Positions 2,934-62,020 of a DNA stretch of 64,000 nt are shown here, piece by piece; the first letter of the stretch is position 1, and every line of letters starts with the position of its first letter. Both the position numbers and the translations under genes were made by a program. The notes beneath the pieces are model-generated. The model saw only the letters and a list, made by a program, of their open reading frames with translations, made no database searches and was not told where the DNA came from. Source of the DNA: Chloroflexota bacterium (GTDB lineage Bacteria; Chloroflexota; Dehalococcoidia; Lucifugimonadales; JADFKI01); assembly GCA_009840355.1 (NCBI GenBank), contig VXNZ01000017.1, positions 925 to 64,924 of the forward strand. The letters are read 5' to 3'.

Positions 2934-3198
2934 TCGTCAATCCTCCATCGGTTAATCATCGTCACTCTTCCGTCTGCGCCAAAGCGCACTCGGTTGAAAT
3001 GATGGTATCAGCCAAGCGTCCCATGCACAAGAACAGCACTCCGAAATGAGAATATGCTCCACCGTGATTTCAATCGACCTATACCCTACCCTGCTTATCC
3101 GATATTCTTCAGCCCAACTCCACGCCTTGACCGATACTACCGAGTGCATATAATACGATTAAGTCATTCGTTAACTCTGCGTAAAGGAGCGTCTCACT

Positions 3199-4533
3199 AT
3201 GGCAACCATTGAAGCACGCTACCGCGAGATGTTTGGCAAATCGGTGGATTGGTATGAACGCGGTAAGTCGCTGTTCGCGGGTGGCATTACGCACCAGACG
3301 CGCTTCACTTCGCCGTTCCCCGCGTACATCGATTATGCCGAGGGACCGTACAAGTACGATGTGGACGATAACCGGATTATCGACTTTGTGATGGGAAACG
3401 GCAGCTTGCTGATGGGGCACAGCCAGCCCGCCATCATCGAGGCGATACGCGAGCAAGTTAGCAGGGGCACGCACGTCGGCGGCGCGTCAACCCATGAAGT
3501 TCGGTACGCTGAAGCAGTCAAGAGTCTCGTGCCATCCTTGGAGCGTGTGCGCTTCACTGCGTCCGGCACCGAATCGACATACCTCGCGCTAAGGCTCGCC
3601 CGCGCATTTACAGGCAAGACGAAAATTGTCAAGTTTCTCGAACACTTCCACGGCTGGCACGATTATGTTACGCCGGAATCCGGGCAAGCGCTCGGCGGAG
3701 TGCCGCAGGAAGTGCTGGACACGGTAATCGTCGCGCCCGTGGACATCGCGGCGGTTGACAACATCCTGACGCAGGACGATGACATCGCCGCCGTAATCGT
3801 CGAATGCAACGGCGCGCATTACGGCACATTCCCATTGCAGAACCCGCATTTCTTGCACGACCTGCAGGAGCAGACGAAGCGGCACGGCGTCCTGTTCATA
3901 ATGGATGAGGTAATCACAGGATTCAGGCTGTCGCCCGGCGGCGCGCAGGTACGCTGGGGACTTGAACCCGACCTCACCACGATGGCGAAGATTATTGCGG
4001 GCGGGCAGCCCGGCGCGGCAGTAGGCGGCAGAGCCGATATTATGGAACTGATGGCATTCCGCAACGACCCAGAGTGGGACAATGAAGGCAGGGTGCCGCA
4101 GGGTGGCACATACAACGCGCAGCCACTGACTGCCGTTGCCGGTGTTGCCGCGCTGAATGCAATCGCCAACGAAGGCGTCAACGCAAGAGCGGACGCGATG
4201 GCGGAACGGCTGAAGGATGGGCTGAATACGGCATTCATTCAGAACGAGGTTGCGGGACACGCGCACGGCATATCGTCGATAATCCATGTGAACCTGAACG
4301 CGGACTGCGACTGTGATCGCGGTATCTGCACGATGCCATATCAGCAGATATACGACACGATGCCCGCCGCCGCGACACGCACATTGCGTCGCGCTATGCT
4401 GGTCAACGGCGTGGATATGATGGGCGGCAGAGCGTTCTTCGTCTCGTCCGCACACGACGAGGATGTCATCGATCGTACTATCGACGCATTCTCCCAATCG
4501 CTGAAAGACCTTCGCGCAGAGGGCGAGTTGTAG
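3199..4533 (+). CDS. Class-III PLP-dependent aminotransferase (glutamate-1-semialdehyde aminomutase-like)
   Basis: 444 aa. Motifs: FTASGTESTYLALRLARA, FIMDEVITGFRL, and TMAKIIAGG (PLP-lysine context). Confidence 0.9.
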   Translation: MATIEARYREMFGKSVDWYERGKSLFAGGITHQTRFTSPFPAYIDYAEGPYKYDVDDNRIIDFVMGNGSLLMGHSQPAIIEAIREQVSRGTHVGGASTHEVRYAEAVKSLVPSLERVRFTASGTESTYLALRLARAFTGKTKIVKFLEHFHGWHDYVTPESGQALGGVPQEVLDTVIVAPVDIAAVDNILTQDDDIAAVIVECNGAHYGTFPLQNPHFLHDLQEQTKRHGVLFIMDEVITGFRLSPGGAQVRWGLEPDLTTMAKIIAGGQPGAAVGGRADIMELMAFRNDPEWDNEGRVPQGGTYNAQPLTAVAGVAALNAIANEGVNARADAMAERLKDGLNTAFIQNEVAGHAHGISSIIHVNLNADCDCDRGICTMPYQQIYDTMPAAATRTLRRAMLVNGVDMMGGRAFFVSSAHDEDVIDRTIDAFSQSLKDLRAEGEL

Positions 4534-4549
4534 AAGAATTGGAGCGTTT

Positions 4550-5299
4550 ATGAGCAGGTTCGACGAACAGGTTGCGATAATAACGGGCGCCGCCACAGGC
4601 ATTGGCTATGGCATCGCGCGGCGGCTGGCATCAGAGGGCGCGCGCCTTGTGATGGTGGACATCGACAGCGAACTCGGCGAGCAGTCCGCAAGCGAAATCT
4701 CCGCACGCAGCAGCGACACGCGGCTGGTAATCGGCGATGTGTCGGAGCAAGCCACGGCGGACGCCGCTGTGCAAGCAGCGTTAGACGCTTGGGGGCGCAT
4801 TGACATCCTCGTGAACAACGCGGGCATTACCGGCATAGACGGCAACATCTGGGAGACAACTCTCGACGAGATGGACCGTGTGTATCGCATCAACTTGCGC
4901 GGCGTATTCGCGTTCTGCCACGCCGCAATACCCGCGATGCTAGAGCGCGACTACGGGCGCATCGTCAACATCGCGTCCATCGCCGGCAAGGAGGGCAACC
5001 CGCGCATGGTGCCCTACTCCGCGACCAAAGCAGCCGTCATCGGTCTCACAAAGTCGGTAGGCAAAGAACTCGCCAAGAGTGGCATCCGCGTTAACTGCGT
5101 TACGCCCGCAGTCGTGCACACACGCATCCTGGACGAACTCACGCCGGAGCAGGTGCAATACATGGTAGATCGCATTCCAATCGGCCGCACCGGCGAGATT
5201 GCCGAGATTGCTGCACTCGTCGCGTGGCTGGCGTCCGAAGAGTGCTCGTTCAGCACCGGCGGCGTATTCGACATCAGCGGCGGCAGGGCGACCTACTAG
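4550..5299 (+). CDS. SDR-family oxidoreductase (FabG-like)
   Basis: 249 aa. Contains the Rossmann TGAATGIGYGIA motif, NNAG, and the YSATKAAV catalytic Y-x-x-x-K. Confidence 0.9.
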   Translation: MSRFDEQVAIITGAATGIGYGIARRLASEGARLVMVDIDSELGEQSASEISARSSDTRLVIGDVSEQATADAAVQAALDAWGRIDILVNNAGITGIDGNIWETTLDEMDRVYRINLRGVFAFCHAAIPAMLERDYGRIVNIASIAGKEGNPRMVPYSATKAAVIGLTKSVGKELAKSGIRVNCVTPAVVHTRILDELTPEQVQYMVDRIPIGRTGEIAEIAALVAWLASEECSFSTGGVFDISGGRATY

Positions 5300-5374
5300 C
5301 CCATCCGTCACGCCAGCATCAGCAGGACGCCGCTGCACCGTTCATACAAGATTCTCAGGCGAAAGGAACATAAA

Positions 5375-5929
5375 ATGCCGTGGATTCGTGAAGCGAACGA
5401 GCGTCTGCACTGGGCGAATGTCATCAACATTATGTCCATCAACCCCAAGGCGATGAAAGCCGTCAGCGACCTGAACAACGCGATCACTTTCGGCGCGTCC
5501 GCTCTCACTCGCACGCAGGAAGAGGCGATTGCGACCGCAGTATCCGTGCAGAATGAATGCCGCTTCTGAACGATGGCGCACGGGGAGTTTCTCCGTCACG
5601 AATCGGACGATCCGGGGTTGGCAAGCCATGTCATGCACGACTACCGTAACGCCGACCTTGAACCGCAGCTGCGCGCCATGCTCGACTACGCCACCAAGCT
5701 AACGCGCGAGCCGACGAACATGCAGGAAGCCGATGTCATCACCCTGCGCGAACACGGATTGTCGGATGAGCAGATTCTATCAGTCGCCCTGATCGCCTGC
5801 ACGTTCAATTTCATGACGCGGCTCGCAGACGGATTAGGCGTAGAAGTGCCGCAAGAACGCCAAGCGTATGTGGAGACTTGGCTCGACAGCCCTGCCCGCG
5901 ACCAAGAGTGGCTTATGAAGCAGAAGTAG
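5375..5929 (+). CDS. AhpD/carboxymuconolactone-decarboxylase-like 'peroxidase-related' protein, probable selenoprotein (in-frame UGA at 5567-5569)
   Basis: ORFs 5375..5569 and 5573..5929 share one frame and are separated only by TGA plus one codon. Read-through gives SVQNECRF-U-TMAHGEFL, which matches N-x-C-x-[YF]-C-x-x-x-H with TGA on the second Cys. An AGGA RBS lies 8 nt before 5375. Confidence 0.7.
5567..5569 (+). other. Candidate selenocysteine (UGA) codon in the CxxU motif of the AhpD-like gene
   Basis: TGA aligns with the second Cys of the family CxxC motif. An imperfect hairpin at 5580-5596 starts 11 nt downstream. Confidence 0.6.
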
Positions 5930-5939
5930 CGCCGGGCGG

Positions 5940-7310
5940 TCAATCGCCGCTTGCGATGCGCGGTTGGGGCGATTCTTCCGGATCGGGCGATTCTTCCGAC
6001 TCGGATGCTTCTTCCGCTTCCCAGTCAGGGATAAGCAGACTGTGGGTTGGCTCTAGGAAGACAATGTTCAGCGCACCGGCAAGACTCGTCGCGATTGAAG
6101 CCCAGAGCGCGATGTCGTAGCTGCCGAATATGTCAAATATCGGACCGCCAATCCAGCCGCCGAGCGCCATGCCCAAGCCTGCGCCCGCCATCTGCCAGCC
6201 GTGCGGCGCTCCGGTCGGCGCTTGCCCGTAATACTGCCGGTTGAGTATCGGGAACCCGCCGGTTTCGCCGCCGTAGCCAATGCCGAATACGATCGCGAAT
6301 AGGTAGAACATCCAAACGTCGTGCGTCCAGAAGAGCATTAAGACCAGAATGCCCTGCAATGCGAAGAAGACGAACATTATCTTGCGCGTGCCGATAGTTT
6401 CGCACATTATCGGCACGAAGACACGCGATATGACACTGACCGCCGAAAGCGTGGACAGCACGCCTGTCGCCTGTAGGAGAGTCAGCCCTTCATTCACCGC
6501 CAGCGGCACGATGTACACCAGAATTATCGCGTGCCCAACGCAGCCGAGAAAGTGAATGCTGCTCATATTCCAAAACGCAGCGGTCTTGCGCATATAGCCG
6601 CTGAACAGCTTCGTGCGCTCCGGGTCCGGCCTGCGCTTTTGAACTTCAACATCGCCCGGACGGAAACCGTAAGGTTGAAGTCCTTTGTCGGCAGGTCTGT
6701 CTCTGAACAGACCGATGAGAAGGAACATTATCGCCGCGGAACCGACGCCAAGCGCGATAAAGGCGTTCTGCCAGCCCATTCCGTCTATGAGCCAGCCTAC
6801 TACTAGCGCAGCAATCGCCGGACCAATCCCCCACGACGCCATGATGAGTCCCATCCCGACGCCGAGATGACGCCGGAACCAGTTCATCGCGGAAGGAATC
6901 AAAGGCACTAGGAATATCGCCTGCGCCACGCCGAGCAGCACGCCGAAGTACAGGTAAAGTTCCCAGATGGTGCTTATAAGTCCGGTGAGCAGCATGCCGG
7001 CTAGGAACATTGCGGTGCCGATCACCATTGCCTTGCGCGCGCCGAAGCGATCGCCAAACCAACCGGCAAAGGGAGAAGCCAAGGCGGTTACCACGCTCGA
7101 AAGCAAGTATGCGAACGTGATGCTGCCTTGGCTCCAGTTGAATGTCTGCTCCAGCGGGTCGATAAACACGCCGAACGCCATGCGGATGGAAGTACCGACC
7201 ATCTGCATCACGGCGATGACCGTTACGATTACCCAGACATAGTGAGGATAGATGACGCGCCCGTAGTTTAGTCGGGCGCGGCTTTCAGACGGTTGCGGCT
7301 GCTGTGCCAT
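5940..7310 (-). CDS. MFS transporter (oxalate/formate-antiporter-like), acidic C-terminal tail
   Basis: 456 aa with about 12 hydrophobic segments. It has an MFS loop motif context (GWFGDRFGARKAM) and a C-terminal EEASESEESPDPEE tail. Confidence 0.9.
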   Translation of the reverse strand: MAQQPQPSESRARLNYGRVIYPHYVWVIVTVIAVMQMVGTSIRMAFGVFIDPLEQTFNWSQGSITFAYLLSSVVTALASPFAGWFGDRFGARKAMVIGTAMFLAGMLLTGLISTIWELYLYFGVLLGVAQAIFLVPLIPSAMNWFRRHLGVGMGLIMASWGIGPAIAALVVGWLIDGMGWQNAFIALGVGSAAIMFLLIGLFRDRPADKGLQPYGFRPGDVEVQKRRPDPERTKLFSGYMRKTAAFWNMSSIHFLGCVGHAIILVYIVPLAVNEGLTLLQATGVLSTLSAVSVISRVFVPIMCETIGTRKIMFVFFALQGILVLMLFWTHDVWMFYLFAIVFGIGYGGETGGFPILNRQYYGQAPTGAPHGWQMAGAGLGMALGGWIGGPIFDIFGSYDIALWASIATSLAGALNIVFLEPTHSLLIPDWEAEEASESEESPDPEESPQPRIASGD

Positions 7311-7677: not shown

Positions 7678-7746
7678 CGGGATTTCCTTTGCCTTTGAGA
7701 GCGTTTGTTTTCCTGCTTTGCAACGCAGTTACCGCAACTTGCAGTT

Positions 7747-8220
7747 TTAGTTGGGAACCGCCGCCTCTGCGATGGACATCAACTCTTCGTCGGACATGTC
7801 CAGCTCGATGTGGTCGCCGTGCGGCTGTGGAACTTCCAACCCGGTCTTGTAATAGACTTCGAGCGTGTTGCCCTCAGGATCGTCGGCGTACATACCAAAC
7901 GCGTTACCATGGCTTACGATGCGCTGGATGTTCACACCTTCGCTCGTGAAGGCGCGGTAGAAGTCCTTCAGCTCCGAAATCGTCTCGACCGTGAAGGAAA
8001 TCTGCTGCACGAGCTTGCCGTCGGCTGGCACATCGCGCCCTTCCATCAACACGAACTCGTGGTGCTCCACATCCGGATTGGCGCTCATGAACACCATGCG
8101 GCGCTGCTCAAGATCTTCGTCCGTAATCTCCAAGCCCATCACGCGCGAGTAGAAATCGCGCTGACCCATCAGGTCGTTCACATAAATGCCCACATGTCCA
8201 AGCCCGCTAACTCTAGGCAT
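7747..8220 (-). CDS. VOC-family (glyoxalase / extradiol dioxygenase-like) protein
   Basis: 157 aa. N-terminus GLGHVGIYVNDL...FYSRVMGLE plus HHEFVL and a second beta-alpha-beta-beta-beta module. Confidence 0.85.
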   Translation of the reverse strand: MPRVSGLGHVGIYVNDLMGQRDFYSRVMGLEITDEDLEQRRMVFMSANPDVEHHEFVLMEGRDVPADGKLVQQISFTVETISELKDFYRAFTSEGVNIQRIVSHGNAFGMYADDPEGNTLEVYYKTGLEVPQPHGDHIELDMSDEELMSIAEAAVPN

Positions 8221-8431
8221 AGTATAGCCTCCTGCCCTGCGTCGTCTCGCATTGTATTGGTAATGGATACTGCGCTTTACGCTGACCGTCCATCTGTGTC
8301 TCTAATGGATAATATAACTCATACTTTCAATTTTGGTAAGCCATCCTGCCAAATGCGTACGGTGCAATCGTGTTTTGCACGCCGACAACAACTGTTATGC
8401 CTTGTCCCCAGCCGCCAAAGAATTCAATTGC

Positions 8432-8459
8432 TCATTCAGACCCATTCATTCAGACCCAT
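8432..8459. repeat. Perfect 14-bp tandem duplication spanning the stop codon of the HAD gene
   Basis: TCATTCAGACCCAT occurs twice in tandem (8432-8445 and 8446-8459). The second copy contains the last three full codons and the stop of the minus-strand HAD gene. Confidence 0.8.
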
Positions 8460-9142
8460 TCCAGCCTGCCATTCAATTCCGCCAACAGCGCATCGAGAGG
8501 CAGCGACGCCAGCGACGCCAGCCGCATGTCCGCCGTGTCGAACTTCATGCGGTCGGTCATCGGGTTTGGCACTACAACACAGTACAGCCCCGCCGCCTTC
8601 GCCGCAGTCAACCCATGCATCGAGTCTTCTATCGCAAGCGCGTTCTCCGGGCGCACTCCCAGCCTATCTACCGCCATCGTATAAAGATCAGGAGCCGGTT
8701 TGGCGCGCTTCACATCGCCCGCGTCCAGCACAAACTCGAAATAATGCAGCAATTCCCTGCTATTCAGATGTCCTTTCGCCCAGCCCGGAAGGGAACTTGA
8801 CGCCACTGCAAGCTTCAGTTGCATGTCCTTTGCGGCAGCCAGATACTCTTTCACGCCTGGCAGAACGGGGTTTTCGTCAATACGCTCCAGGTAACGGCGG
8901 CGCATTCGTGGACGGACTTCCGCCCGCTCGATATGCTGCCCCGACAATTCGGCAAGGTGCTTGTAGATATTGAAATCGTCACTGTGCCGGCCGATAGCCC
9001 ACTCCCACACATCGCGCTCCAGCGAGACGCCGTAAGAATCGAACACCTCCTGCCATGTGTCAAACTCTGGCGTCTCCGTATCTATTATCAGCCCGTCGAA
9101 ATCAAAGACGATTGCTTCAATCAAGTTATTTCCCCAAGTCAT
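8450..9142 (-). CDS. HAD-superfamily hydrolase (subfamily IA, beta-phosphoglucomutase-like)
   Basis: 230 aa. Contains the DxD motif IVFDFDGLIIDTE, S/T motif VASSS, K...EDS(MHG) motifs. Confidence 0.9.
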   Translation of the reverse strand: MTWGNNLIEAIVFDFDGLIIDTETPEFDTWQEVFDSYGVSLERDVWEWAIGRHSDDFNIYKHLAELSGQHIERAEVRPRMRRRYLERIDENPVLPGVKEYLAAAKDMQLKLAVASSSLPGWAKGHLNSRELLHYFEFVLDAGDVKRAKPAPDLYTMAVDRLGVRPENALAIEDSMHGLTAAKAAGLYCVVVPNPMTDRMKFDTADMRLASLASLPLDALLAELNGRLEWV

Positions 9143-14251: not shown

Positions 14252-15271
14252 ATGCTCACATCTACCGCAGACTTAAGTCAATTCAAACTCGATGGCAAAA
14301 TCGGCGAAGGCGCCGACTCTGAGGTGTTCGCGGCGACGGATTCAGCCACCGGCGATGCAGTCGTCGTCAAGCGCCCGCATCCAATGCTGATTTCGCGCGG
14401 ACAGCACAGCGCCGTCGAGAGGCGCATGGCGAGTGCAATTGCGCTGCGAGAACAACTCGGCGACACGCTGCCGTGTGTGGCGAAATTGATTGGATACAGT
14501 CAGTCCGCAAGCCACGACGACTACTTTAGCGATACGCTTGGCGAGTCGTACAGCGTGGTCGTAGAAGAACGCGCGCGCGGCATTCCACTTGTCGCTAGCG
14601 CGATGGATGGCATCAAGCGCCATCCAATCGGGCTGCCGCAGAACCTGTTTGCCATTCACCCGGTCCTGCCGCACTTGGAACGCGGCAGGTTCAGCATATT
14701 GCGCGACTTGCTGGAAGTTGGCAGAGCATTCGATAACGCAGGCGCGCTCATACTCGATATGCGCCCGCAAAATATCTACTTCCATCCGGGTAGCGCGACG
14801 ATAATCGTCATCGACATCGGCGGCGTAACAGAGCCACAAGCGACAAGTGGCAGAAAACCACTGCTAGACCTGCACGACTTTTACCTTGAACTGTTCAAGT
14901 GGTACATACCGAACACCACACCGCAGCAGCAGGCAACAGGCTATGCGCAGCCCATTGGTATGGAGACGATTCCGATGTTCAACCAGAACTTGGACACGAT
15001 AATTCGACAGCACACGGACGCGCCGGACGGAGATTGGCACGACGCGGCTATCCACATCCTGCGCAAGGTCAAGGCACGAACTTATCCCGGATTCGACGCG
15101 TTCTCGGCTGACTTTGAGGCGCTCTTGGACTTGCTAAATGCCCACTACGAACGCCTATCGCATTGCGAAGGCATCCGGAAAGCATGGCAAAAAGCCGCTG
15201 AGTTGCTTACCGCTGACTACTGGCGCAAGTATCAGTTCGACTCTGACAGCCTTAGCGCATACAACCGCTAG
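14252..15271 (+). CDS. Stand-alone atypical protein-kinase-like protein
   Basis: 339 aa. It has a Gly-loop-like GKIGEGADSEVF, the beta3 Lys context VVVKRP, catalytic-loop-like LDMRPQNIYF (HRDxKPxN analogue lacking His-Arg) and DIG in place of DFG. Confidence 0.7.
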   Translation: MLTSTADLSQFKLDGKIGEGADSEVFAATDSATGDAVVVKRPHPMLISRGQHSAVERRMASAIALREQLGDTLPCVAKLIGYSQSASHDDYFSDTLGESYSVVVEERARGIPLVASAMDGIKRHPIGLPQNLFAIHPVLPHLERGRFSILRDLLEVGRAFDNAGALILDMRPQNIYFHPGSATIIVIDIGGVTEPQATSGRKPLLDLHDFYLELFKWYIPNTTPQQQATGYAQPIGMETIPMFNQNLDTIIRQHTDAPDGDWHDAAIHILRKVKARTYPGFDAFSADFEALLDLLNAHYERLSHCEGIRKAWQKAAELLTADYWRKYQFDSDSLSAYNR

Positions 15272-16284
15272 TTTCCGACGCTGACGCCGTATTCGTTCGT
15301 CGGGTCGCGGTAGATTGAGTGGTAATGGCCCGTATCCGCGCCGACGCCGCCCTGCGTGGAGTATTCGATGATGAGCGCAGGCGCCTGAATGCGGTAGTAG
15401 ATGGGGCCGCTGCCATCAATCTCGCCGTGCCACGCGAAGCGCGCATCCTTGATTTGCTCGTCCAATTCGGCGACGCGCAGCTTGCGGCTTTCGTCGTCGA
15501 GAATATCGAACCACATAGCCACCGTGTCCGCGAGCGTTTGCCGCTGCGCCGTGCTCCAATCGGCGACGCACGAGCCTTCTAGCGCTGGAATGAAGCCGTC
15601 ATGCCCTGCGGCTGTCCACACTTCAAGCGGCCGGTCGCCGACCATAGATCGATTGCGTTGCTGCTCGTTTAGTGCGTTGATGAGCGCTAAGCCCGCTTCG
15701 AGTTCCGGCGCGAGTGGCGCAATCGTCTCGTCGTACGCTTCATACTCCGCCGGTTCGATGCCGATGAATGTGGGCGACATGTAACTGATGCCGTCCACCA
15801 GCGTTACATTGACGCCGAGGTGATGCCCGCCGAACTGCCAGCCCCACTTCTCGCTGTCCGATGGCGTGCCGAAGAATGCAAGCCAATAATTCTCGTCTGT
15901 CCAAGCGAAATGCGGCGCGCGCTCTGTATGCGACAGCACTTCGTCCGCGCCCACCACATCGACGACTTTTTTGTAGCCCTTCGCGCTCAACGCCGTCGCC
16001 AGAAACGCGAAAATCGCGGACACTTGCTCGTCGTTCATATCGCCGATGCGCGCGCCGTTGCGCTCGAAGTCCAAGATTCCCGCCGGTAGGTTAGACCAGT
16101 TTGGGCGAACAGGATCGTCAATCGCGTACATCGCGGAAGATCGCTGCCCGTCGTCCAGCAATGAGAGAAATGCGTTAGCGGCGGCAACAGTAGCAGAAGT
16201 CTCATCGTCGCCCGCAGTAAAACGCAGCTCCGCCCCACGTGCCGCAATCTCCGTTACACGAGTCCTACCCATTTCAACTACCAT
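15268..16284 (-). CDS. DUF3500 domain protein
   Basis: 338 aa. Segments FGGHHLGVNVT and GHYHSIYRDPTNEYG match my memory of the DUF3500 conserved His-rich motifs. Confidence 0.75.
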   Translation of the reverse strand: MVVEMGRTRVTEIAARGAELRFTAGDDETSATVAAANAFLSLLDDGQRSSAMYAIDDPVRPNWSNLPAGILDFERNGARIGDMNDEQVSAIFAFLATALSAKGYKKVVDVVGADEVLSHTERAPHFAWTDENYWLAFFGTPSDSEKWGWQFGGHHLGVNVTLVDGISYMSPTFIGIEPAEYEAYDETIAPLAPELEAGLALINALNEQQRNRSMVGDRPLEVWTAAGHDGFIPALEGSCVADWSTAQRQTLADTVAMWFDILDDESRKLRVAELDEQIKDARFAWHGEIDGSGPIYYRIQAPALIIEYSTQGGVGADTGHYHSIYRDPTNEYGVSVGN

Positions 16285-21740: not shown

Positions 21741-22172
21741 CTATTCCGGCTCGGTGCCGACCCATCCGCCCTGCGAGATGTCGATCATCACGCCGTCCGG
21801 TCCGCCGTACTTCGTCTCGACATTGCGTCCGCCGTGTCCTTGCTGCGGCGCCATACCACCGTGCAGCGCGTCATTCACATCGTCCATCGGGAACGCGCCG
21901 GCGCCCTTCATTTTGATGTCCGCCGCCGCCGCGTCATCTACCTGAAAGCCGATGTGATGAATGCCACTGTAATCGCTATCGACATCGCCGGTAACCACAT
22001 CGTTCTTGAACTTGAGGATAGCCATATTGACATTCCCGTCGCTCAGGTAATAACCGTCGGCATTCGCGCTGGTAACCTTGCCCACTTCTTCCAGCCCCAG
22101 CACATCCTTATAGAACGCCGCCGTCTCGTCCGGGTTCTGCGATGAAATTGCGATATGCTTGATTTTTGCCAT
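21741..22172 (-). CDS. VOC-family (glyoxalase-like) protein
   Basis: Frame of ORF 21741..22202. ATG 22172 is preceded by GAGGAG. The sequence begins MAKIKHIAISSQNPDETAAFYKDVLGLEEV. Confidence 0.85.
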   Translation of the reverse strand: MAKIKHIAISSQNPDETAAFYKDVLGLEEVGKVTSANADGYYLSDGNVNMAILKFKNDVVTGDVDSDYSGIHHIGFQVDDAAAADIKMKGAGAFPMDDVNDALHGGMAPQQGHGGRNVETKYGGPDGVMIDISQGGWVGTEPE

Positions 22173-22372
22173 GTCTCCTCGCTCTCGCGGTCCATGCCGC
22201 ACTAACTTTGTGTTTAGTTTTCATCGGAACATTGCTGCCAATATATGGACGACTGAAACGATTGTCAATCCCGCCTGTCCACTCTGCCCATTCCTATCAG
22301 TCTCACGCTACCCGCAGACTTTCGTTCATAGTAAAATACACCCACGAAACGATCGATTTCAGGAGAGAGCCA

Positions 22373-23194
22373 TTGCGGTGTCCAAATTGCCAGCGTGAAT
22401 CCGCAGGGAACGCAGTCTTCTGCAATCACTGTGGAACGCAGCTGCAAAAAATCTGCGTCAACTGCGATAGCTTCAATCCACTTGACAGTAACTTTTGCAG
22501 CCGCTGCGGTTCGAGCTTGTCTCCCGGTTTGCAGGAGTCAGAGACGCCAGCCTACCAGGAGGCACAGGCAAGTTCGCCTGCCTCTTCTACGGCATGTCCG
22601 CGCTGCCACAAAGTCAACGAACCCGGCTCCGCATACTGCTACTCCTGCGGGCTTCCGTTAGACGACATTGATGACGCTTCTCAGCCGTCAATAATGCAGC
22701 AGCCGCGATACCGCCCATATGCTCAGTCGGATACGCAACAGCCATACGAGGATTATGCCGCACGGCCTGCCGGCTTTTGGATTCGACTTGTGGCTGCATT
22801 GATCGATGGCGCTATTCTCATATCGTTCACTTTGATTCTGGTAGGAGTGATCCCGGGAGTTTCCCTCTCTGAGTATCTTGGCAACATTTCGCTGGACTTG
22901 GAACCTGAAGAAACCACTCCGCTCTGGTTCGATGTAGTAGATATTACTTTGAATGCGATGTATTCAGCAGTTCTTGTCTGGTTATGGTCTGCAACCATAG
23001 GTAAGATGATATTTAGACTTCATGTAGTACGTACAGATGGCTCCAAAGTCGGCTTCGGCAGGGCCCTTGCGAGATGGGGATGCTACTTCCTCTCAATCAT
23101 CACGCTCGGCATAGGATTCCTGATAATTGCCTTCCGCAGGGACAAACGCGGCTTGCACGACCTGATTTGCGACACAATGGTAGTCAAGCGGTAA
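22373..23194 (+). CDS. Triple zinc-ribbon (DZR-like) plus RDD-domain membrane protein
   Basis: Frame of ORF 22166..23194. TTG 22373 lies 5 nt after AGGAGAG. Three CxxC..CxxC ribbons are present (CPNC/CNHC, CVNC/CSRC, CPRC/CYSC). They are followed by an RDD-type 3-TM domain (WIRLVAALIDGAIL...RRDKRGLHDLICDT). Confidence 0.8.
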   Translation: MRCPNCQRESAGNAVFCNHCGTQLQKICVNCDSFNPLDSNFCSRCGSSLSPGLQESETPAYQEAQASSPASSTACPRCHKVNEPGSAYCYSCGLPLDDIDDASQPSIMQQPRYRPYAQSDTQQPYEDYAARPAGFWIRLVAALIDGAILISFTLILVGVIPGVSLSEYLGNISLDLEPEETTPLWFDVVDITLNAMYSAVLVWLWSATIGKMIFRLHVVRTDGSKVGFGRALARWGCYFLSIITLGIGFLIIAFRRDKRGLHDLICDTMVVKR

Positions 23195-32138: not shown

Positions 32139-33140
32139 ATGATTCTGATGGTGAGCGTTCAGAACTTGGAAGAGGCGCTGCAAGCCCTTAAGGGCGGCGC
32201 CGACATTATTGATGTGAAGAATTTGCAGGAAGCGCTCGTCGGTTCGGCGCACCCGCATATCGTCCGTGATGTTCGCACGGCAATCCCAATGGAGCGACAC
32301 GCGAGCGTTACGCTTGGCGTCGTGCCACATCAGGTTGGCACAGTCGCGATGGCAGTCTATGCTGCTGGCGTCATCAACGCCACATCGGTTAAGGTCGGAT
32401 TTATGGACCACGAATACGAACTTGCGCTCGAGACGCTGCACGCCAGCCGCGAGGCGCTCGACGGATTCGAGACGAAGCTAATCGGCTCGCTGTTCGCGGA
32501 TAACGCACTGTTCGGTGGGCTTGAACCGCATCACATGAACAAGTTGGCAATCGAAACCAAATGCGATGGCTGGCTGATTGATACGCTGACGAAAGACGGC
32601 CGCAATCTGTTCGACTTTATCCGCGAGGAAGAACTGCGCGATATGGTGTTCGAGGGCAAAGAAGCGGGTATGAGCACAGCGCTGTCGGGCCACCTGCGCA
32701 TAAGCGACCTCGACGAACTTGCGCGCATCAACCCGGACATCGTGGGCGTGCGCGGCGCCGCCTGCCAGAAGTTGGACGACAGGACTTCCAGTGTTCACTG
32801 GGAGCCGGTCGCCGAGTTTAAGCGGCAGCTCGATATGCGCCTAAGCGGCGAAGTCGATGTGTTCGCCACCGCTCCGGCAGTGGAGTCTAGCAACGGCTCG
32901 ACGAACGGCAGCGCGGGCAACGAATGGGTAGTTATCGATGGCACGGGAAAGACCTGCGCCGGCATCATCGCAGCCCTGACGGAGCACATCGACAACGACG
33001 GCGAGTCCTTCGTCGAAGTGCTAATCCCCGATGTACTGAATACATACGATGTAATCGTCTGGGCGGAAAAGCGCAACCACAGCATCCTGACGCAGCGCGA
33101 CGACGACGCGGGCTTCGTCAGAATGCTCATCAAGCCGTAA
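32139..33140 (+). CDS. MfnB-like (DUF556; 4-HFC-P synthase family) aldolase fused to a C-terminal TusA/SirA-like domain
   Basis: Residues 1 to about 232 carry GADIIDVKN, SVKVGF, WLIDTLTKDGRNLFDF and DIVGVRGAAC, as in archaeal MfnB. Residues about 261-333 (32919-33137) look TusA-like (IDGTGKTCAGII...FVEVL...DVIVWAEKRNHSIL). Confidence 0.75.
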   Translation: MILMVSVQNLEEALQALKGGADIIDVKNLQEALVGSAHPHIVRDVRTAIPMERHASVTLGVVPHQVGTVAMAVYAAGVINATSVKVGFMDHEYELALETLHASREALDGFETKLIGSLFADNALFGGLEPHHMNKLAIETKCDGWLIDTLTKDGRNLFDFIREEELRDMVFEGKEAGMSTALSGHLRISDLDELARINPDIVGVRGAACQKLDDRTSSVHWEPVAEFKRQLDMRLSGEVDVFATAPAVESSNGSTNGSAGNEWVVIDGTGKTCAGIIAALTEHIDNDGESFVEVLIPDVLNTYDVIVWAEKRNHSILTQRDDDAGFVRMLIKP

Positions 33141-37413: not shown

Positions 37414-38337
37414 ATGCGCGTACTCGTAACCGGAGGTGCCGGATTCATCGGCTCCCACATAGTCGATACCCTAGTAGAGCAAGGCCACGCCGTATCCGTA
37501 GTCGATAACCTGTCCGAAGGCAGCCGCGACAACCTGAACCCATACGCAAAGTTCTTCGATGTCAGCGTCAATGACCCCGACGGCTTGGAATTAGTATTCG
37601 CGGAGGCGAAACCCGATGTAGTAAGCCACCACGCCGCCCAAGTGAGCGTCCGCAACTCCATGTATGACCCCACGCACGACGCCCAAGTGAACATTATCGG
37701 TTCACTGAACGTGCTTCAATGCGCGGTAAAGCATGACGTCGAGCGTATCATATTCCCGTCCACCAGCGCAGTCTATGCCAAGCCCAACCACTTGCCTATG
37801 GACGAAACCCACCCTTTAAGTCCGGAAAGCGTCTATGGCGTCTCTAAGCTCAGTGTAGAAAACTTCGTCCGCCTGTACACCGACACATACGGCATAAGGC
37901 ACAAGATTTTTCGCTACGGCAATGTATTCGGTCCCCGTCAGAATCCGCACGGAGAAGCGGGTATCGTTGCCATATTTACCGGCCAGTTCATGCGCGGAGA
38001 ACAGCCGACCATATTCGGTGACGGCGGCAAGACCCGAGACTACATCTTCATCAACGACATCGTCGCCGCGAACACCGCCGCGCTCGACACTACCGGCGAC
38101 AACGAGACCTACAATCTTGCTTGGGGTATCGGCGTATCGGACTTTGAGATATTCGATGCTGTGCGCGCCGCGAGCGATTCATCTATGCAACCGCGCTACG
38201 CACCCGTTCGCCCAGGCGAAGCAGAGCATGTTAACCTCGACCCGTCCAAAGCCATCCAATCCCTGTCGTGGCGGCCGCAAGTCAGCCTATACGACGGAAT
38301 TCTGCAAGTTATCGAACATTACCGCGAAACTCACTAG
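37414..38337 (+). CDS. NAD-dependent sugar-nucleotide epimerase/dehydratase (GalE-like)
   Basis: 307 aa. Contains MRVLVTGGAGFIGSH, the catalytic YGVSK motif, and RYGNVFGPRQ. Confidence 0.9.
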   Translation: MRVLVTGGAGFIGSHIVDTLVEQGHAVSVVDNLSEGSRDNLNPYAKFFDVSVNDPDGLELVFAEAKPDVVSHHAAQVSVRNSMYDPTHDAQVNIIGSLNVLQCAVKHDVERIIFPSTSAVYAKPNHLPMDETHPLSPESVYGVSKLSVENFVRLYTDTYGIRHKIFRYGNVFGPRQNPHGEAGIVAIFTGQFMRGEQPTIFGDGGKTRDYIFINDIVAANTAALDTTGDNETYNLAWGIGVSDFEIFDAVRAASDSSMQPRYAPVRPGEAEHVNLDPSKAIQSLSWRPQVSLYDGILQVIEHYRETH

Positions 38338-38450
38338 CCACTAACCCGAATCGCGTTTCCATTTGCCATAGCTATGACCTCATCTGCTACAATTCAAGAA
38401 GGACCTCACTCAACTATATTCGTCAATTGTGGACGACACGGCGACTGACC

Positions 38451-39620
38451 ATGAACTCACAATCCACCATGCCAGCAGCCTTCGTGCAGCGCATCCACGA
38501 CAGCGATATGATGGCGGTCATATCTGTCGCCGGTGCCGGCTCCGCGGCGATTTCGTGGCTGCTTGGCGTCGCAGGAGCGTCCCGCACCGTCCTCGAGATA
38601 CTCGTGCCGTATGCATCATCGTCGCTCACCGAGTTCGTGGGCGGAGAGCCACAGCAATTCGTATCCGAAGACACCGCGGTCGCAATGGCGAAATCCGCGT
38701 ACCGACGCGCGCTGCATCTTCGAGAAGGCAGCGCGCCCGTCGTCGGCATAGCGTGCACTGCTACCATCGCCACCGACCGCACCAAACGCGGCGACCATCG
38801 TTGCCACATCGCGGCTTGGAGCGCGGCGGGCGTTGCGACATACAATCTGACTTTCGTCAAAGAACTCCGTGACCGCGCCGGTGAAGATGCTTTGGCAAGT
38901 ATGCTAGTGCTGCGTGCGCTATCCGATGCGGCATGCTTGCCATTCGACGACGACCTGCATCTCGACACGACCGAGTACGTTGAAAGCAATAGCGTGCAAT
39001 ACGCCGATCCCATCGATGCGCTGATGGCAGGACATATTGGCAAGGCAGTCGTGCATCCTGACGGCAGCATGCGCGCAGACGAACCGTTTCATGGCGGCAT
39101 ATTATCCGGGTCGTTTAACCCGCTGCATGAAGGACACGCGGCAATGGTGAAGACGGCATCCGAAATGCTAGACAAACCGGTCGTCTATGAACTATCCGTC
39201 GCCAACGCTGACAAGCCACCGCTTGAAGCGGGCGAAGTGCGGCGCAGAGTAGCACAGTTCACCGGCGCTGCGCCAATCGTGCTAACCGGCGTGCCCGTGT
39301 TCTACAAGAAGGCGGACTTGCTACCCGGATGCACATTCATCATCGGCGTAGATACCGCAGTAAGGCTGTTTGACAAGAAGTATTACAGCAACAGCGAGAC
39401 CGAAATGCTGCTCGCCTTACAGCAGATGCGCGAACACGACTGCGACTTTTTGGTCGCAGGACGTGTCGATGGCAACACATTCCACACGCTCGCAGATGTC
39501 AGGATTCCGGACGGATTCGAGCCCATGTTTACCCCGATACCGGAGTCTGCGTTTCGCAGCGACATATCTTCCACTGAAATCAGAGCGGCTGGCGTATCGG
39601 GCAGCCGCGCCGCACAGTGA
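38451..39620 (+). CDS. Two-domain protein: divergent CinA/PncC-like domain plus nucleotidyltransferase (NadD/NMNAT-like, HxGH) domain
   Basis: Frame of ORF 38268..39620, starting at ATG 38451. The N-terminal half resembles the CinA C-domain (SVAGAGSAA...VPYASSS...FVSEDTAVAMA). The C-terminal half has GSFNPLHEGH and ISSTEIR, which are cytidylyltransferase-superfamily motifs. Confidence 0.7.
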   Translation: MNSQSTMPAAFVQRIHDSDMMAVISVAGAGSAAISWLLGVAGASRTVLEILVPYASSSLTEFVGGEPQQFVSEDTAVAMAKSAYRRALHLREGSAPVVGIACTATIATDRTKRGDHRCHIAAWSAAGVATYNLTFVKELRDRAGEDALASMLVLRALSDAACLPFDDDLHLDTTEYVESNSVQYADPIDALMAGHIGKAVVHPDGSMRADEPFHGGILSGSFNPLHEGHAAMVKTASEMLDKPVVYELSVANADKPPLEAGEVRRRVAQFTGAAPIVLTGVPVFYKKADLLPGCTFIIGVDTAVRLFDKKYYSNSETEMLLALQQMREHDCDFLVAGRVDGNTFHTLADVRIPDGFEPMFTPIPESAFRSDISSTEIRAAGVSGSRAAQ

Positions 39621-39624
39621 GCGC

Positions 39625-41978: not shown

Positions 41979-42607
41979 CACAGTTTCCCGTGACGAATCA
42001 AATTGCGCCAAATCATCCAGTCGTCATTGGCATCAGCGGCGCAAGCGGCTCGATGATTGCAAACGGCTTGATTGACGCGGTATTGCAGAGCGGCATACCC
42101 GTCATCGCGACCGCTTCCAACGCCGCGCGGATGGTCTGGCAACAAGAAATGGACACTTCGTTCGGCGAGGCGCTTGAGTATTGGCGCGATTTGGGCGATT
42201 TCACCTATTGCGCGCCGGGCGACATTCAATCGCCGATTGCGAGCGGTTCGTTCCCCACGCGGGGCATGGTCATCGCGCCGTGCAGCATGTCAACTGTCGC
42301 CGCCCTTGCGCACGGATTCGCCGACAATCTGATTCGCCGCGCCGCCGACGTCTGCCTGAAAGAACGCCGTCCGCTGACCATCGTGCCGCGCGAGACGCCG
42401 CTCAGCGCCATTCACCTCGAGAATATGGCGGCGCTCTCGCGGCTTGGCGTAACGGTCTTGCCGCCGGAACCGCCTTTCTACCTGAAGCCGAAATCGCTGG
42501 ACGATGTGGCGAATTATGTTGTGCAGAAGGCACTGGTTAGTATCGGATTGATTGCCGCTCTTCCGCAAAGCATGCAATACGACGGACCAGCTCGACCATC
42601 AGGATAA
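41975..42607 (+). CDS. ubiX: UbiX-family flavin prenyltransferase
   Basis: The ATG at 41975 overlaps the ubiA stop (ATGA). Contains VIGISGASG, MVIAPCSMSTVAALAHG and VPRETPL. Confidence 0.9.
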   Translation: MTQFPVTNQIAPNHPVVIGISGASGSMIANGLIDAVLQSGIPVIATASNAARMVWQQEMDTSFGEALEYWRDLGDFTYCAPGDIQSPIASGSFPTRGMVIAPCSMSTVAALAHGFADNLIRRAADVCLKERRPLTIVPRETPLSAIHLENMAALSRLGVTVLPPEPPFYLKPKSLDDVANYVVQKALVSIGLIAALPQSMQYDGPARPSG

Positions 42608-49917: not shown

Positions 49918-49966
49918 CTGTTTTCCTCCTAAATCAGGAAAGTGCTTGGTGTGCGATGCCCTTGGT

Positions 49967-61327: not shown

Positions 61328-62020
61328 ATGAAAATCAGAACTACGCTATTCCTGCTGCTGGGGCTAGTTGCGGCTGTTTCAGCAATAATTGGTTGCGGGT
61401 CGGCGCCGGCAGTATCGCAGCCGAGCGAACCGGCGAACATCCCTGACGCTGCGCCGCAAGCAAGTGAACCGGCGCCCCCAGAACCGTCTCAACCCGTCAC
61501 CACTATGTTTCAAGCCGATTCCGAACCGCCGAAGGTAACACAGCCGATGGCGAGTGAGCCGGAAGCTGCGCCTGTCGAAGTCGGCTATAAGGTGGGCATG
61601 ATGGCGCCCGAGTTCGGGATGAGCCTGTACGACGGCACGAGGGTTACGTCCGCGAGCCTCGCCGAGCAAGGCAAGCCCACCTTCATCTATTTCCACGCGA
61701 CTTGGTGAGGCACCTGCCGCGTCGAGTTACGGCGCATCAAGGAAGAGATTGGCGCAAGCTACAACGACCAAGTCGCAATCTACATCGTCGGCACGGACCC
61801 GTCCGAGAGCGTCGAAAAGCTGGAAGCCGATAGGGAACGTGAGAGCTTGCCATACGCCACCGCATACGCGGACGAAGGCATGCTGGAGACTCTGAAAATC
61901 TACACGCAGGCATCCAAAATCGCCCTAGACAGCGACGGCATCATCACGCACCGCTACGGTTTCGGCAAGGGCGACTTCGAGAACTGGGGCGACCTGTTCG
62001 CTGACATCGCCGCCAACTAA
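61328..62020 (+). CDS. TlpA/ResA-like thioredoxin-fold thiol:disulfide oxidoreductase lipoprotein, probable selenoprotein (in-frame UGA at 61706-61708)
   Basis: ATG 61328 gives MKIRTTLFLLLGLVAAVSAIIGC (lipobox). The ORF track stops at TGA 61706. The same frame stays open for 103 more codons to TAA 62018-62020. The junction KPTFIYFHATW-U-GTCRVE matches FWATW-C-G-P-C-R. Confidence 0.75.
61706..61708 (+). other. Candidate selenocysteine (UGA) codon in the UxxC motif of the thioredoxin-fold gene
   Basis: TGA occupies the first Cys of WCGxC. The downstream in-frame sequence completes a thioredoxin fold. Confidence 0.65.

What the first reader, a model, noticed from the sequence alone, without database searches (positions are those of the whole stretch)
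5375..5929. In-frame UGA on the second Cys of an AhpD/CMD CxxC motif: probable selenoprotein split into two ORFs
ORFs 5375..5569 and 5573..5929 are in the same frame, separated only by TGA (5567-5569) and one codon. Read through, the junction is ...AVSVQNECRF-[TGA]-TMAHGEFL.... This reproduces the N-x-C-x-[Y/F]-C-x-x-x-H signature of the carboxymuconolactone-decarboxylase/AhpD-like 'peroxidase-related' family, with the TGA exactly at the second redox Cys, giving C-x-x-U. Neither half is a complete domain on its own. The ATG at 5573 leaves no room for a ribosome-binding site after the stop. An imperfect hairpin (5580-5596, GUUUC loop) begins 11 nt after the UGA, where bacterial SECIS elements sit. 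AhpD-like selenoproteins have been predicted in computational surveys of marine metagenomes, so the family is not new. This locus would still be mis-annotated as two fragments or a pseudogene.
Basis: partly seen in the sequence, partly recalled or inferred. Interest (0 to 1): 0.7.

Follow-up and report, generated by a model that had tools for sequence, protein, structure and literature searches.

The report
AhpD-like selenoprotein gene, split by UGA
The two short ORFs are one gene for a small redox enzyme whose in-frame UGA "stop" almost certainly encodes selenocysteine; this is a genuine but ordinary member of a selenoprotein family known from ocean metagenomes since 2005.

Summary
Window 5375..5929 (+) is one reading frame broken only by TGA 5567-5569, at the junction ...NECRF-[TGA]-TMAHGEF.

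With Cys placed at the TGA, the product passes NCBIfam TIGR01926 "peroxidase-related enzyme" (128 bits, cutoff 81.8). It aligns across the break to five solved AhpD-like structures whose second CxxC cysteine falls on the TGA column.

Across 97 related loci the column is TGA in 77, TGC/TGT in 19 and TAA in 1. Both halves are under strong purifying selection (dN/dS 0.04 and 0.07, dS about 1.1-1.3).

A 7-bp hairpin (5580-5596, loop GUU) starts 11 nt after the UGA. It is the least synonymously variable stretch of the gene. It shows compensatory changes in TGA-bearing relatives and is absent from Cys-bearing ones.

A second gene in the window (61328..62020, thioredoxin-like lipoprotein, W-[TGA]-G-T-C) has a conserved TGA and a hairpin in the same register.

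TGA also ends 9 of 38 ordinary ORFs here, so the genetic code is not reassigned. The window has no selA/B/D or tRNA-Sec. A close relative carrying the same gene (SAR202 bin90) is reported to have SelA, SelB and SelD.

The family (AhpD-like, COG2128/TIGR01926, CxxU) is already catalogued, so novelty is low.

The parts
5375..5929 (+). Complete AhpD-like (TIGR01926 / COG2128 'peroxidase-related') selenoprotein ORF, 184 codons including Sec65, terminated by TAG 5927-5929
   Evidence: Translation. NCBIfam TIGR01926 128 bits > 81.8 and Pfam CMD 37.5 bits. PDB homologs align over residues 14-158, across the TGA. dN/dS is 0.041 upstream and 0.073 downstream of the TGA.
5361..5367 (+). Shine-Dalgarno-like GAAAGGA, 7 nt upstream of start codon ATG 5375
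   Evidence: Read from the sequence. GAAAGGA is kept in 10 of the 19 genome loci, and the rest carry other purine-rich motifs. Its function as a ribosome-binding site is inferred.
5558..5560 (+). TGC codon for Cys62, the first residue of the C-x-x-U redox motif
   Evidence: Sequence. It aligns with the first Cys of CxxC in 3c1l, 2pfx and 2prr. It is invariant as Cys in the 19 sequences compared, window plus L001-L018.
5567..5569 (+). In-frame UGA read as selenocysteine (Sec65), equivalent to Cys133 of M. tuberculosis AhpD
   Evidence: TGA in all 20 close sequences. Over 97 loci the column is TGA 77, TGC 18, TGT 1, TAA 1. It aligns to the second Cys of solved homologs. The E50-x11-C62-x-x-U65-x3-H69 spacing matches the AhpD proton relay described in PMC3141380.
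5580..5596 (+). SECIS-like hairpin: 7-bp stem (5580-5586 / 5590-5596), apical loop GUU (5587-5589), 17 nt between UGA and loop
   Evidence: Folding. It is the least synonymously variable 6-codon window of the gene, 0.076 against a mean of 0.43. In-register pairs number 6.6 of 7 in 70 TGA-type loci against 4.1 of 7 in 19 Cys-type loci, p = 4e-12. 94.3% of cells pair against 37-59% in slid registers, three pairs change on both sides, and 0 of 500 shuffles reach the score.
61328..62020 (+). Separate gene, used as supporting evidence: thioredoxin-fold (DsbE/ResA/TlpA-like) lipoprotein with in-frame TGA 61706-61708 at the first Cys of W-C-G-x-C (UxxC), plus hairpin 61719-61735 (loop AGUUA)
   Evidence: Coding-potential scan and translation. 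All 15 homolog clusters are N-terminal fragments ending at the TGA. Four divergent loci keep the TGA, the downstream frame and a hairpin with a compensatory G-C to U-A change. The TGA aligns to the first Cys of WCGVC / WCPTC in PDB relatives.

Best explanation
Window 5375..5929 is a single gene for a 184-residue AhpD-like thiol/selenol oxidoreductase of the TIGR01926 / COG2128 'peroxidase-related' family.

During translation the UGA at 5567-5569 is not read as stop. The hairpin 11 nt downstream (5580-5596, GUU loop) acts as a bacterial SECIS element. It recruits SelB.GTP.Sec-tRNA(Sec) to the ribosome, so selenocysteine is inserted at position 65.

The product carries a C62-R-F-U65 redox centre inside the AhpD proton-relay signature E50-x11-C-x-x-U-x3-H69. 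Sec occupies the position of the second Cys of the AhpD CxxC pair (Cys133 of M. tuberculosis AhpD). Forming and resolving a selenenylsulfide with Cys62 would let the protein reduce peroxides, or re-reduce a peroxiredoxin-type partner.

Shown here: one frame, family membership, TGA/Cys alternation at the catalytic column, purifying selection on both halves, a conserved and covarying hairpin, and a second TGA-containing redox gene in the same window.

Inferred: actual Sec insertion, the SelB-hairpin interaction, and the enzymatic activity and its partner.
For: One frame with a single TGA.

TIGR01926 scores 128 bits against a cutoff of 81.8.

The PDB homologs 3c1l, 2pfx, 2prr, 6k40 and 2oyo match over residues ~14-158. 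In the three alignments inspected (3c1l, 2pfx, 2prr) the second CxxC Cys falls on the TGA column.

More than 100 homolog clusters are truncated at the same point. All 19 intact Dehalococcoidia/SAR202 genome loci carry TGA there. Over 97 loci the count is TGA 77, TGC/TGT 19.

dN/dS is 0.041 and 0.073 on the two sides, with dS about 1.1-1.3.

Hairpin codons show the lowest synonymous diversity in the gene. The hairpin is specific to TGA-type loci, 6.6 against 4.1 pairs of 7, p = 4e-12. Compensatory changes occur at three pairs, with 94% of cells paired against 37-59% in slid registers.

TGA is an ordinary stop for 9 of 38 window ORFs, and it ends the same gene at its natural C-terminus in six relatives.

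A second selenoprotein-type gene in the window has a conserved TGA and a hairpin in the same register.

SelA, SelB and SelD COGs are reported for SAR202 bin90 (MPND...), which carries ortholog L005.

The family is already listed as a CxxU selenoprotein.
Against: The window has no selA, selB, selD or tRNA-Sec. Sec-decoding capacity of this particular genome is therefore inferred from a relative and from a second TGA gene.

The hairpin's folding energy in the single sequence is no better than shuffles. Mean folding energy of the 45 nt after the column is similar in TGA-type and Cys-type loci, -12.9 against -11.9 kcal/mol. Only the register-specific stem distinguishes them.

Part of the hairpin's sequence conservation is confounded with the conserved peptide H-G-E-F-L-R.

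In this clade an ATG lies two codons after the TGA, so re-initiation cannot be formally excluded for this locus.

The residue between the redox pair is Phe, where characterised AhpD proteins have His or Tyr.

There is no protein-level evidence.
Confidence: 0.93

Rival explanations
1. Split gene. The TGA is a true stop, and translation re-initiates at ATG 5573 by termination-reinitiation coupling (TGA ACG ATG). This would give a 64-aa and a 118-aa polypeptide that assemble non-covalently.
For: ATG is kept two codons after the TGA in the window and in all 19 close genome loci. Gene callers systematically call the 118-aa ORF.
Against: In more distant TGA-bearing relatives the +2 codon is CTC, CTG, CTA, ATC, ACC, ACG, CAG, CGC, AAG, AAT or GCA, with no start codon nearby, yet the frame continues.

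The break falls exactly on the catalytic Cys column, where relatives have TGC/TGT. A split product would lack the catalytic residue altogether.

No Shine-Dalgarno motif precedes ATG 5573.

This model does not explain the hairpin covariation specific to TGA-type loci.
Confidence: 0.03
2. Pseudogene or sequencing/assembly error. A TGC/TGT codon mutated or was miscalled to TGA in this window.
For: TGA is one substitution from TGC/TGT. A few relatives are visibly decayed: L022 and L023 are frameshifted and L044 has TAA.
Against: TGA is identical in 77 independent loci from different assemblies and technologies, including closed long-read chromosomes.

Both halves have dN/dS of 0.04-0.07 with synonymous sites near saturation. 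That is incompatible with loss of function.
Confidence: 0.01
3. UGA read-through without selenium. A near-cognate or suppressor tRNA inserts Trp, Cys or Arg, or TGA is reassigned genome-wide, giving a full-length protein without Sec.
For: Two short metagenome contigs carry TGG (P0001) and CGA (P0007) at the column with an intact hairpin. Sense codons other than Cys therefore exist, at least as rare variants or errors.
Against: TGA terminates 9 of 38 ordinary ORFs in the window, and it ends this same gene at its normal C-terminus in six relatives. The code is therefore standard.

The column alternates with Cys, not with Trp or Gly.

A dedicated hairpin is conserved only downstream of TGA.

Related SAR202 genomes are reported to encode SelA, SelB and SelD.
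Confidence: 0.03

Closest known systems
AhpD-like selenoprotein family ('AhpD-like protein' of the Sargasso Sea survey 2005; 'AhpD-like 1', COG2128, of the GOS survey 2008; listed with TIGR01926, motif CxxU, in the 2022 and 2026 reviews)
   Same: The model hit is the same (TIGR01926 above cutoff). The CxxU motif has Sec at the second position. Cys homologs are widespread. A small stem-loop with a G in the apical loop lies directly downstream of the UGA. The source is marine.
   Different: Nothing essential differs. This clade (sponge-associated and marine SAR202/Dehalococcoidia) has Phe, not Tyr, between the redox residues (C-R-F-U). It also has a GUU triloop where more distant members have GGC or GGN. 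The lineage is not named in the reviews searched.
Mycobacterium tuberculosis AhpD and P. aeruginosa PA0269 (characterised Cys-containing AhpD proteins)
   Same: The E-x11-C-x-x-C-x3-H proton-relay spacing is shared: Glu118/Cys130/Cys133/His137 and Glu36/Cys48/Cys51/His55 against E50/C62/U65/H69 here. The fold family is the same all-helical CMD/AhpD family, judged by sequence.
   Different: Sec replaces the second Cys. The middle relay residue is Phe, not His or Tyr. No ahpC lies next to the gene: the neighbours are an SDR, a class-III aminotransferase and a divergent MFS transporter. MtAhpD is a longer protein with the motif at the C-terminus.
Solved 'uncharacterized peroxidase-related proteins' 3c1l (Mlr4105), 2pfx, 2prr, 2oyo, and 6k40 (AhpD)
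   Same: These are the closest solved relatives, with E-values of 5e-28 to 1e-19 over about 145 residues. They share the N-x-C-x-[Y/F]-C-x-x-A-H-G signature.
   Different: All of them are Cys forms. The window protein has Sec at the second Cys.
NF041238 AhpD_rel_CFYUT 'alkylhydroperoxidase-related (seleno)protein' ('hypothetical protein 1' of the Sargasso Sea)
   Same: It has a C-x-x-U-T motif in an AhpD-related C-terminal domain.
   Different: It is a 357-position model, of which only positions 176-342 are matched. The score of 62.9 is far below the 175 cutoff. The window protein is not a member.
E. coli fdhF-type bacterial SECIS / bSECISearch consensus
   Same: [quoted passage not shown] The 17-nt distance from UGA to loop fits the 16-37 nt range that I recall from the bSECISearch model; that range is from memory and was not verified here.
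   Different: The conserved upper stem is short (7 bp) with a 3-nt loop, and no conserved bulged U was seen. Rfam holds no model that matches it. SelB binding is untested.

Membership tests
TIGR01926 / COG2128 'peroxidase-related enzyme' (AhpD-like) | Whole-protein HMM score above NCBIfam's curated cutoff | tested here: met
   128 bits against a cutoff of 81.8, covering residues 10-158 and profile positions 25-175 of 178, with Cys substituted at the TGA. Neither half passes Pfam CMD alone: the N-terminal half scores 21.3 < 23 and the C-terminal half has no hit.
TIGR01926 / COG2128 'peroxidase-related enzyme' (AhpD-like) | CxxC redox motif within the E-x11-C-x-x-C-x3-H proton-relay signature | tested here: met
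   E50, C62, U65 (TGA) and H69 have the same spacing as Glu118/Cys130/Cys133/His137 of MtAhpD. The middle residue is Phe64, where His or Tyr is usual.
AhpD-like selenoprotein (CxxU) | In-frame TGA aligned with a conserved Cys of homologs (Sec/Cys pair), with several independent TGA-containing sequences | tested here: met
   Over 97 loci the column is TGA 77, TGC 18, TGT 1, TAA 1. PDB Cys homologs have Cys at the column. This meets the criteria quoted in PMC1976440: at least 2 Cys homologs and at least 2 sequences with a conserved TGA.
AhpD-like selenoprotein (CxxU) | [quoted passage not shown] | tested here: met
   The hairpin at 5580-5596 has a GUU loop, and G at +21 is nearly invariant (>=90% of 70 sequences). 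Covariation and specificity to TGA-type loci are shown. The criterion's wording comes from PMC1088965. bSECISearch itself was not available.
AhpD-like selenoprotein (CxxU) | Selenium actually incorporated; peroxidase or reductase activity | not testable with these tools
   Requires 75Se labelling, mass spectrometry and enzyme assays.
Bacterial Sec-decoding trait | selA, selB, selD and tRNA-Sec (selC) present in the same genome | not testable with these tools
   None is present in the 64-kb window. The rest of the genome is not available.

The evidence is indirect. Table S4 of PMC5649159 gives SelA = 3, SelB = 1 and SelD = 1 for SAR202 bin90 (MPND...), which carries ortholog L005. All three are also present in the four other SAR202 bins. 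A second conserved TGA gene lies in the window.
Bacterial Sec-decoding trait | TGA otherwise functions as a stop codon (no genome-wide reassignment) | tested here: met
   Nine of 38 annotated ORFs in the window end in TGA. Six orthologs end at the same C-terminus with TGA.
NF041238 AhpD_rel_CFYUT (seleno)protein | Score above cutoff over the full 357-position model | tested here: not met
   62.9 bits against a cutoff of 175, and only profile positions 176-342 are matched.
AhpC/AhpD two-component peroxidase system (M. tuberculosis type) | ahpD adjacent to or co-transcribed with an ahpC peroxiredoxin | tested here: not met
   The neighbours are a GSA-aminomutase-like aminotransferase, an SDR and a divergent MFS transporter, and this arrangement is conserved in about 11 close genomes. 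No peroxiredoxin family appeared among the roughly 40 window ORFs scanned.
gamma-carboxymuconolactone decarboxylase proper | gamma-CMD sequence motifs; no CxxC and no proton relay (as stated in PMC3141380) | tested here: not met
   The protein has the CxxC-type (CxxU) motif and the relay residues, which places it on the AhpD-like side of the Pfam CMD superfamily.

The most novel reading that the evidence does not exclude
The SAR202/Dehalococcoidia clade may use an unusually compact, lineage-specific SECIS. It would be a 6-7-bp stem with 'GAGUU' fixed at +19..+23 from the UGA, and it is shared by two unrelated selenoprotein genes in this window.

In addition, the clade-specific ATG two codons after the UGA might allow a selenium-dependent switch. 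Under this idea, full-length selenoenzyme is made when Sec-tRNA is available, and termination-reinitiation yields two fragments when it is not.
Probability: 0.07. Interest if true: 0.5.

Novelty: new member of a known kind. Interest (0 to 1): 0.25.

Why it matters
The main value is for annotation. In every database entry I saw, this gene is recorded as an unnamed 118-119-aa fragment, across more than 100 clusters. The thioredoxin-like gene at 61328..62020 is likewise recorded as a roughly 126-aa stub. Sponge-associated and marine SAR202/Dehalococcoidia genomes are therefore systematically missing at least two selenoproteins from their proteomes.

Recognising these genes adds concrete selenoprotein targets to the earlier COG-level observation that sponge symbionts are enriched in SelA and SelB. 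It also gives a clean alignment of 70 distinct in-register hairpin sequences that could be used to train a SECIS model for this family.

It does not change what is known about selenoproteins or about AhpD chemistry.

Tried and rejected
- **Rfam.** The gathering scan of the whole window and a permissive scan of 5450-5750 found no SECIS-type or other relevant RNA family.
- **ARAGORN.** No tRNA at all in the window, and only one tRNA-Cys in 26 related loci. No tRNA-Sec was found.
- **Sec machinery in the window.** NCBIfam or Pfam scans of about 40 main ORFs found no SelA, SelB or SelD.
- **Single-sequence thermodynamics.** The hairpin region does not fold better than shuffles. Overall folding energy does not separate TGA-type from Cys-type loci. 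I therefore dropped stability as an argument and used register-specific pairing and covariation.
- **Lower stem.** The lower-stem extension predicted for the window is not conserved among relatives and is not claimed.
- **Full-length database hits.** P0001 and P0007 looked at first like sense-codon (W, R) homologs. Their DNA shows TGG and CGA, each one nucleotide from TGA, on single contigs of about 1 kb with an intact hairpin. I treat them as point variants or errors, not as evidence against Sec.
- **Third scan candidate.** The TGA at 27784 is simply the stop of the YloV/FakA-like gene, followed by the in-frame start of the DegV gene.
- **Promoter/terminator scan of 4400-6100.** Nothing informative.
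- **Structure prediction.** Not run. Sequence homology to five solved structures across the break made it unnecessary.

Full report
**Observation**

Window 5375..5929 on the + strand translates as one frame of 184 codons with a single internal stop, TGA at 5567-5569. The ORF table lists the two pieces as 5375..5569 (64 aa) and 5573..5929 (118 aa). Only the TGA and one ACG codon separate them.

ATG 5375 is preceded by GAAAGGA at 5361-5367. That exact motif recurs in 10 of the 19 related genome loci; the rest carry other purine-rich motifs. ATG 5573 is preceded by GCCGCTTCTGAACG, which has no Shine-Dalgarno-like motif.

**Family**

With Cys substituted at the TGA, the product scores 128 bits on NCBIfam TIGR01926 'peroxidase-related enzyme' (cutoff 81.8). 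It scores 37.5 bits on Pfam CMD PF02627. Neither half passes on its own: the N-terminal half scores 21.3 against a cutoff of 23, and the C-terminal half hits nothing.

Five solved AhpD-like or 'peroxidase-related' structures match over residues ~14-158, across the break, at E = 5e-28 to 1e-19: 3c1l, 2pfx, 2prr, 6k40 and 2oyo. In the three alignments I inspected, nhCyyCltAHG, nkCfyClvAHG and nqClyCvvAHG line up with neCrf[TGA]tmAHG. The TGA therefore sits on the second Cys of the CxxC pair.

The spacing E50-x11-C62-x-x-U65-x3-H69 reproduces the AhpD proton relay. That relay is Glu118/Cys130/His132/Cys133/His137 in M. tuberculosis AhpD and Glu36/Cys48/Tyr50/Cys51/His55 in PA0269 (PMC3141380). 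The one difference is Phe64 at the His/Tyr position.

The related model NF041238 (AhpD_rel_CFYUT selenoprotein) is not met: 62.9 bits against a cutoff of 175.

**Comparative evidence that the TGA is decoded**

A search of the 5.8-billion-protein collection returned 354 hits. Nearly all of the top 120 are 118-119-aa proteins covering only the C-terminal 64% of the query, and they start at MAHGEF or MSHGEF. In other words, gene callers split the gene at the same point in more than 100 sequence clusters.

A scan of species-representative genomes found 23 loci. All but one weak partial hit (L021, labelled Enterobacteriaceae) are Dehalococcoidia, SAR202 or Chloroflexi MAGs, several of them closed chromosomes of 2.7-3.9 Mb. 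All 19 intact loci (82-95% amino-acid identity) have TGA at the same codon.

A metagenome scan added 80 more distant loci at 37-71% identity. Over all 97 loci the column is TGA 77, TGC 18, TGT 1 and TAA 1. This is the Sec/Cys alternation used as the operational definition of a selenoprotein gene (criteria quoted from PMC1976440).

Among the window and 18 close genomes, dN/dS is 0.041 for codons 1-64 and 0.073 for codons 66-183, with dS about 1.1-1.3. Both halves are maintained as protein while synonymous sites are near saturation, and the TGA never changes.

TGA is an ordinary stop in this organism. It ends 9 of 38 annotated ORFs in the window. In six orthologs it terminates this same gene at its normal C-terminus. 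Genome-wide reassignment of TGA is therefore excluded.

**The hairpin**

ACGGGGA-GUU-UCUCCGU occupies 5580-5596. Counting the U of UGA as +1, the stem is +14..+20 / +24..+30 and the loop is +21..+23.

In this single sequence the folding energy is not better than shuffles (z = +1.08 and -0.61). I do not use stability as evidence.

The comparative signal is strong:

- Codons 69-74 (H-G-E-F-L-R) are the least synonymously variable 6-codon window of the gene, 0.076 against a gene mean of 0.43. The six-fold-degenerate Leu and Arg codons are fixed as CTC and CGT in all 19 sequences compared.
- The one frequent change, GGG to GGA, converts a G.U pair into A-U.
- Among 70 distinct TGA-type sequences, 56 have all 7 pairs in this register (mean 6.6). 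The 19 Cys-type relatives average 4.1, although they encode similar peptides (Mann-Whitney p = 4e-12).
- On the 70-sequence alignment, 94.3% of cells pair, against 37-59% when the partner is slid by 1-3 columns.
- Three pairs change on both sides: 20-24 A-U to G-C (12 sequences) and to C-G (3); 15-29 C-G to U-A (2); 17-27 G-C to C-G (1).
- None of 500 shuffles reaches the observed covariation score.
- G at +21 is nearly invariant. [quoted passage not shown]

Rfam has no model that hits here.

**Rivals**

*Split gene with re-initiation at ATG 5573.* This is the only rival with some footing, because ATG is kept at +2 in the closest clade. More distant TGA-bearing relatives have CTC, CTG, CTA, ATC, ACC, ACG, CAG, CGC, AAG, AAT or GCA there, and the frame still continues. 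A split product would also lack the catalytic residue.

*Pseudogene or sequencing error.* This is excluded by the conservation and selection data. A few relatives are genuinely decayed: L022 and L023 are frameshifted and L044 has TAA.

*Sense-codon homologs.* Two 'full-length' database proteins have W and R at the column. Their DNA shows TGG and CGA, each one nucleotide from TGA, on single contigs of about 1 kb with an intact hairpin. They are point variants or errors, and they are visible as full-length only because callers cannot read through TGA.

**Can this genome decode Sec?**

The window has no tRNA at all. No SelA, SelB or SelD was found among about 40 ORFs scanned. That is uninformative for 64 kb of a 3-5-Mb genome. 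Two indirect lines support decoding capacity.

First, a coding-potential scan for ORFs interrupted by a lone TGA returned three hits. One is this gene. One is a trivial stop-start junction at 27784. The third is a second gene at 61328..62020. It has a lipoprotein-type signal peptide, a Pro-rich linker and a thioredoxin-fold domain with FIYFHATW-[TGA 61706]-GTCRVE.

- All 15 homolog clusters of that gene are N-terminal stubs ending at the TGA.
- Four divergent loci (45-52% identity) keep TGA at HAT[W/F/Y]-U-x-x-C and then 97-103 more in-frame codons. One of them lies on the same 3.78-Mb chromosome that carries AhpD-like locus L012.
- Their hairpin GCGUCG-AGUUA-CGGCGC (61719-61735) becomes GCUCCG-AGUUG-CGGAGC in L024 and L025. 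That is a G-C to U-A compensatory change, produced by coordinated V-to-S and R-to-S substitutions.
- The TGA aligns with the first Cys of WCGVC / WCPTC in solved relatives.
- Its stem-loop is in the same register as the AhpD-like one, with GAGUU at +19..+23 in both genes.

Second, Slaby et al. 2017 report that SelA and SelB are enriched in Aplysina aerophoba sponge symbionts. Their Table S4 gives SelA = 3, SelB = 1 and SelD = 1 for SAR202 bin90. Bin90 is MPND00000000, the assembly that holds locus L005 with the orthologous TGA gene at 91% identity. The other four SAR202 bins also have all three COGs.

**Context**

A GSA-aminomutase-like aminotransferase (3199..4533), an SDR (4550..5299), the AhpD-like gene and a divergently oriented MFS transporter (5940..7310, -) are syntenic in about 11 of the closest genomes. 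No peroxiredoxin is adjacent, so the physiological partner is unknown.

**Comparison with what is known, and verdict**

The 2005 Sargasso Sea survey introduced the 'AhpD-like protein' selenoprotein family (27 sequences, COG2128, CxxU). The 2008 GOS survey ranks 'AhpD-like 1' fourth in abundance, with 299 selenoproteins and 902 Cys homologs. The 2022 and 2026 reviews list 'AhpD-like protein, COG2128/TIGR01926, CxxU'.

The window gene meets every sequence-level criterion of that family. It is a routine new member from a lineage (SAR202/Dehalococcoidia) that these papers do not name.

The practical consequence is an annotation fix, both for this gene and for the thioredoxin-like gene at 61328..62020.

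Confidence that this is a Sec-encoding gene is 0.93. Interest is 0.25.

Noticed in passing
window 61328-62020 (+); TGA 61706-61708; hairpin 61719-61735: A second probable selenoprotein gene. It encodes a lipoprotein-signal thioredoxin-fold (DsbE/ResA/TlpA-like) protein with W-[TGA]-G-T-C (UxxC), directly downstream of an HtrA/DegP-like protease gene.

All 15 database homolog clusters are N-terminal stubs ending at the TGA. Four divergent loci keep the TGA, the frame and a covarying hairpin. The TGA aligns to the first Cys of WCxxC in PDB relatives.
   Followed up: yes
window 5585-5589 and 61724-61728: Both TGA-containing genes carry GAGUU at +19..+23 from the U of UGA, at the top of a 6-7-bp stem in the same register. 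This may reflect a lineage-specific SelB recognition motif, or merely Glu-Phe / Glu-Leu coding.
   Followed up: partly
L022 (about 3001-3251), L023 (about 3001-3547), L044 (207-209): Some relatives look decayed. L022 and L023 are frameshifted around the motif, although L023 still shows ...NECRY*TMPHG. L044 has TAA, not TGA, at the Sec column. These may be pseudogenes or assembly errors.
   Followed up: partly
L108 (P0001) and L109 (P0007): The only 'full-length' close database homologs have TGG (Trp) and CGA (Arg) at the Sec column, with the hairpin intact. Each sits on a single contig of about 1 kb. They are most likely point errors or variants of TGA that happen to let gene callers read through.
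   Followed up: yes
protein P0006 (143 aa; ENA contig of 13.8 kb): This database protein reads ...NECRMAHGEF..., skipping the F-U-T codons, and it diverges at its C-terminus. It looks like a gene-model artefact that 'spliced out' the TGA, not a real deletion.
   Followed up: no
window 3199-7310 and L001-L009, L017, L019: There is a conserved neighbourhood: a GSA-aminomutase-like class-III aminotransferase, an SDR oxidoreductase, the AhpD-like gene and a divergent lactate/oxalate-formate-type MFS transporter. More distant orthologs (L010-L016, L018) do not share it.
   Followed up: partly
window 39370-42607 (+): A UbiD-family decarboxylase, a UbiA prenyltransferase and a flavoprotein (UbiX-like) lie in a row. 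This is a prenylated-FMN decarboxylase-type cluster.
   Followed up: no
window 48769-51379 (-): An adjacent DUF1501 / DUF1800 gene pair lies next to an NHL-repeat protein at 47666-48661.
   Followed up: no
window 7705-8973, 14252-15271, 15268-16284, 22166-23194, 38268-39620: Five long ORFs (338-450 aa) had no family hit at the thresholds used (NCBIfam at 1e-5 for four of them; Pfam at 1e-8 for 38268-39620). The last overlaps the UbiD ORF start and may be a shadow or a mis-started ORF.
   Followed up: no
window 32139-33140 (+): This ORF matches Pfam 4HFCP_synth (4-HFC-P synthase, a methanofuran-biosynthesis family) at E = 2e-53. That is unexpected in a Chloroflexi genome.
   Followed up: no
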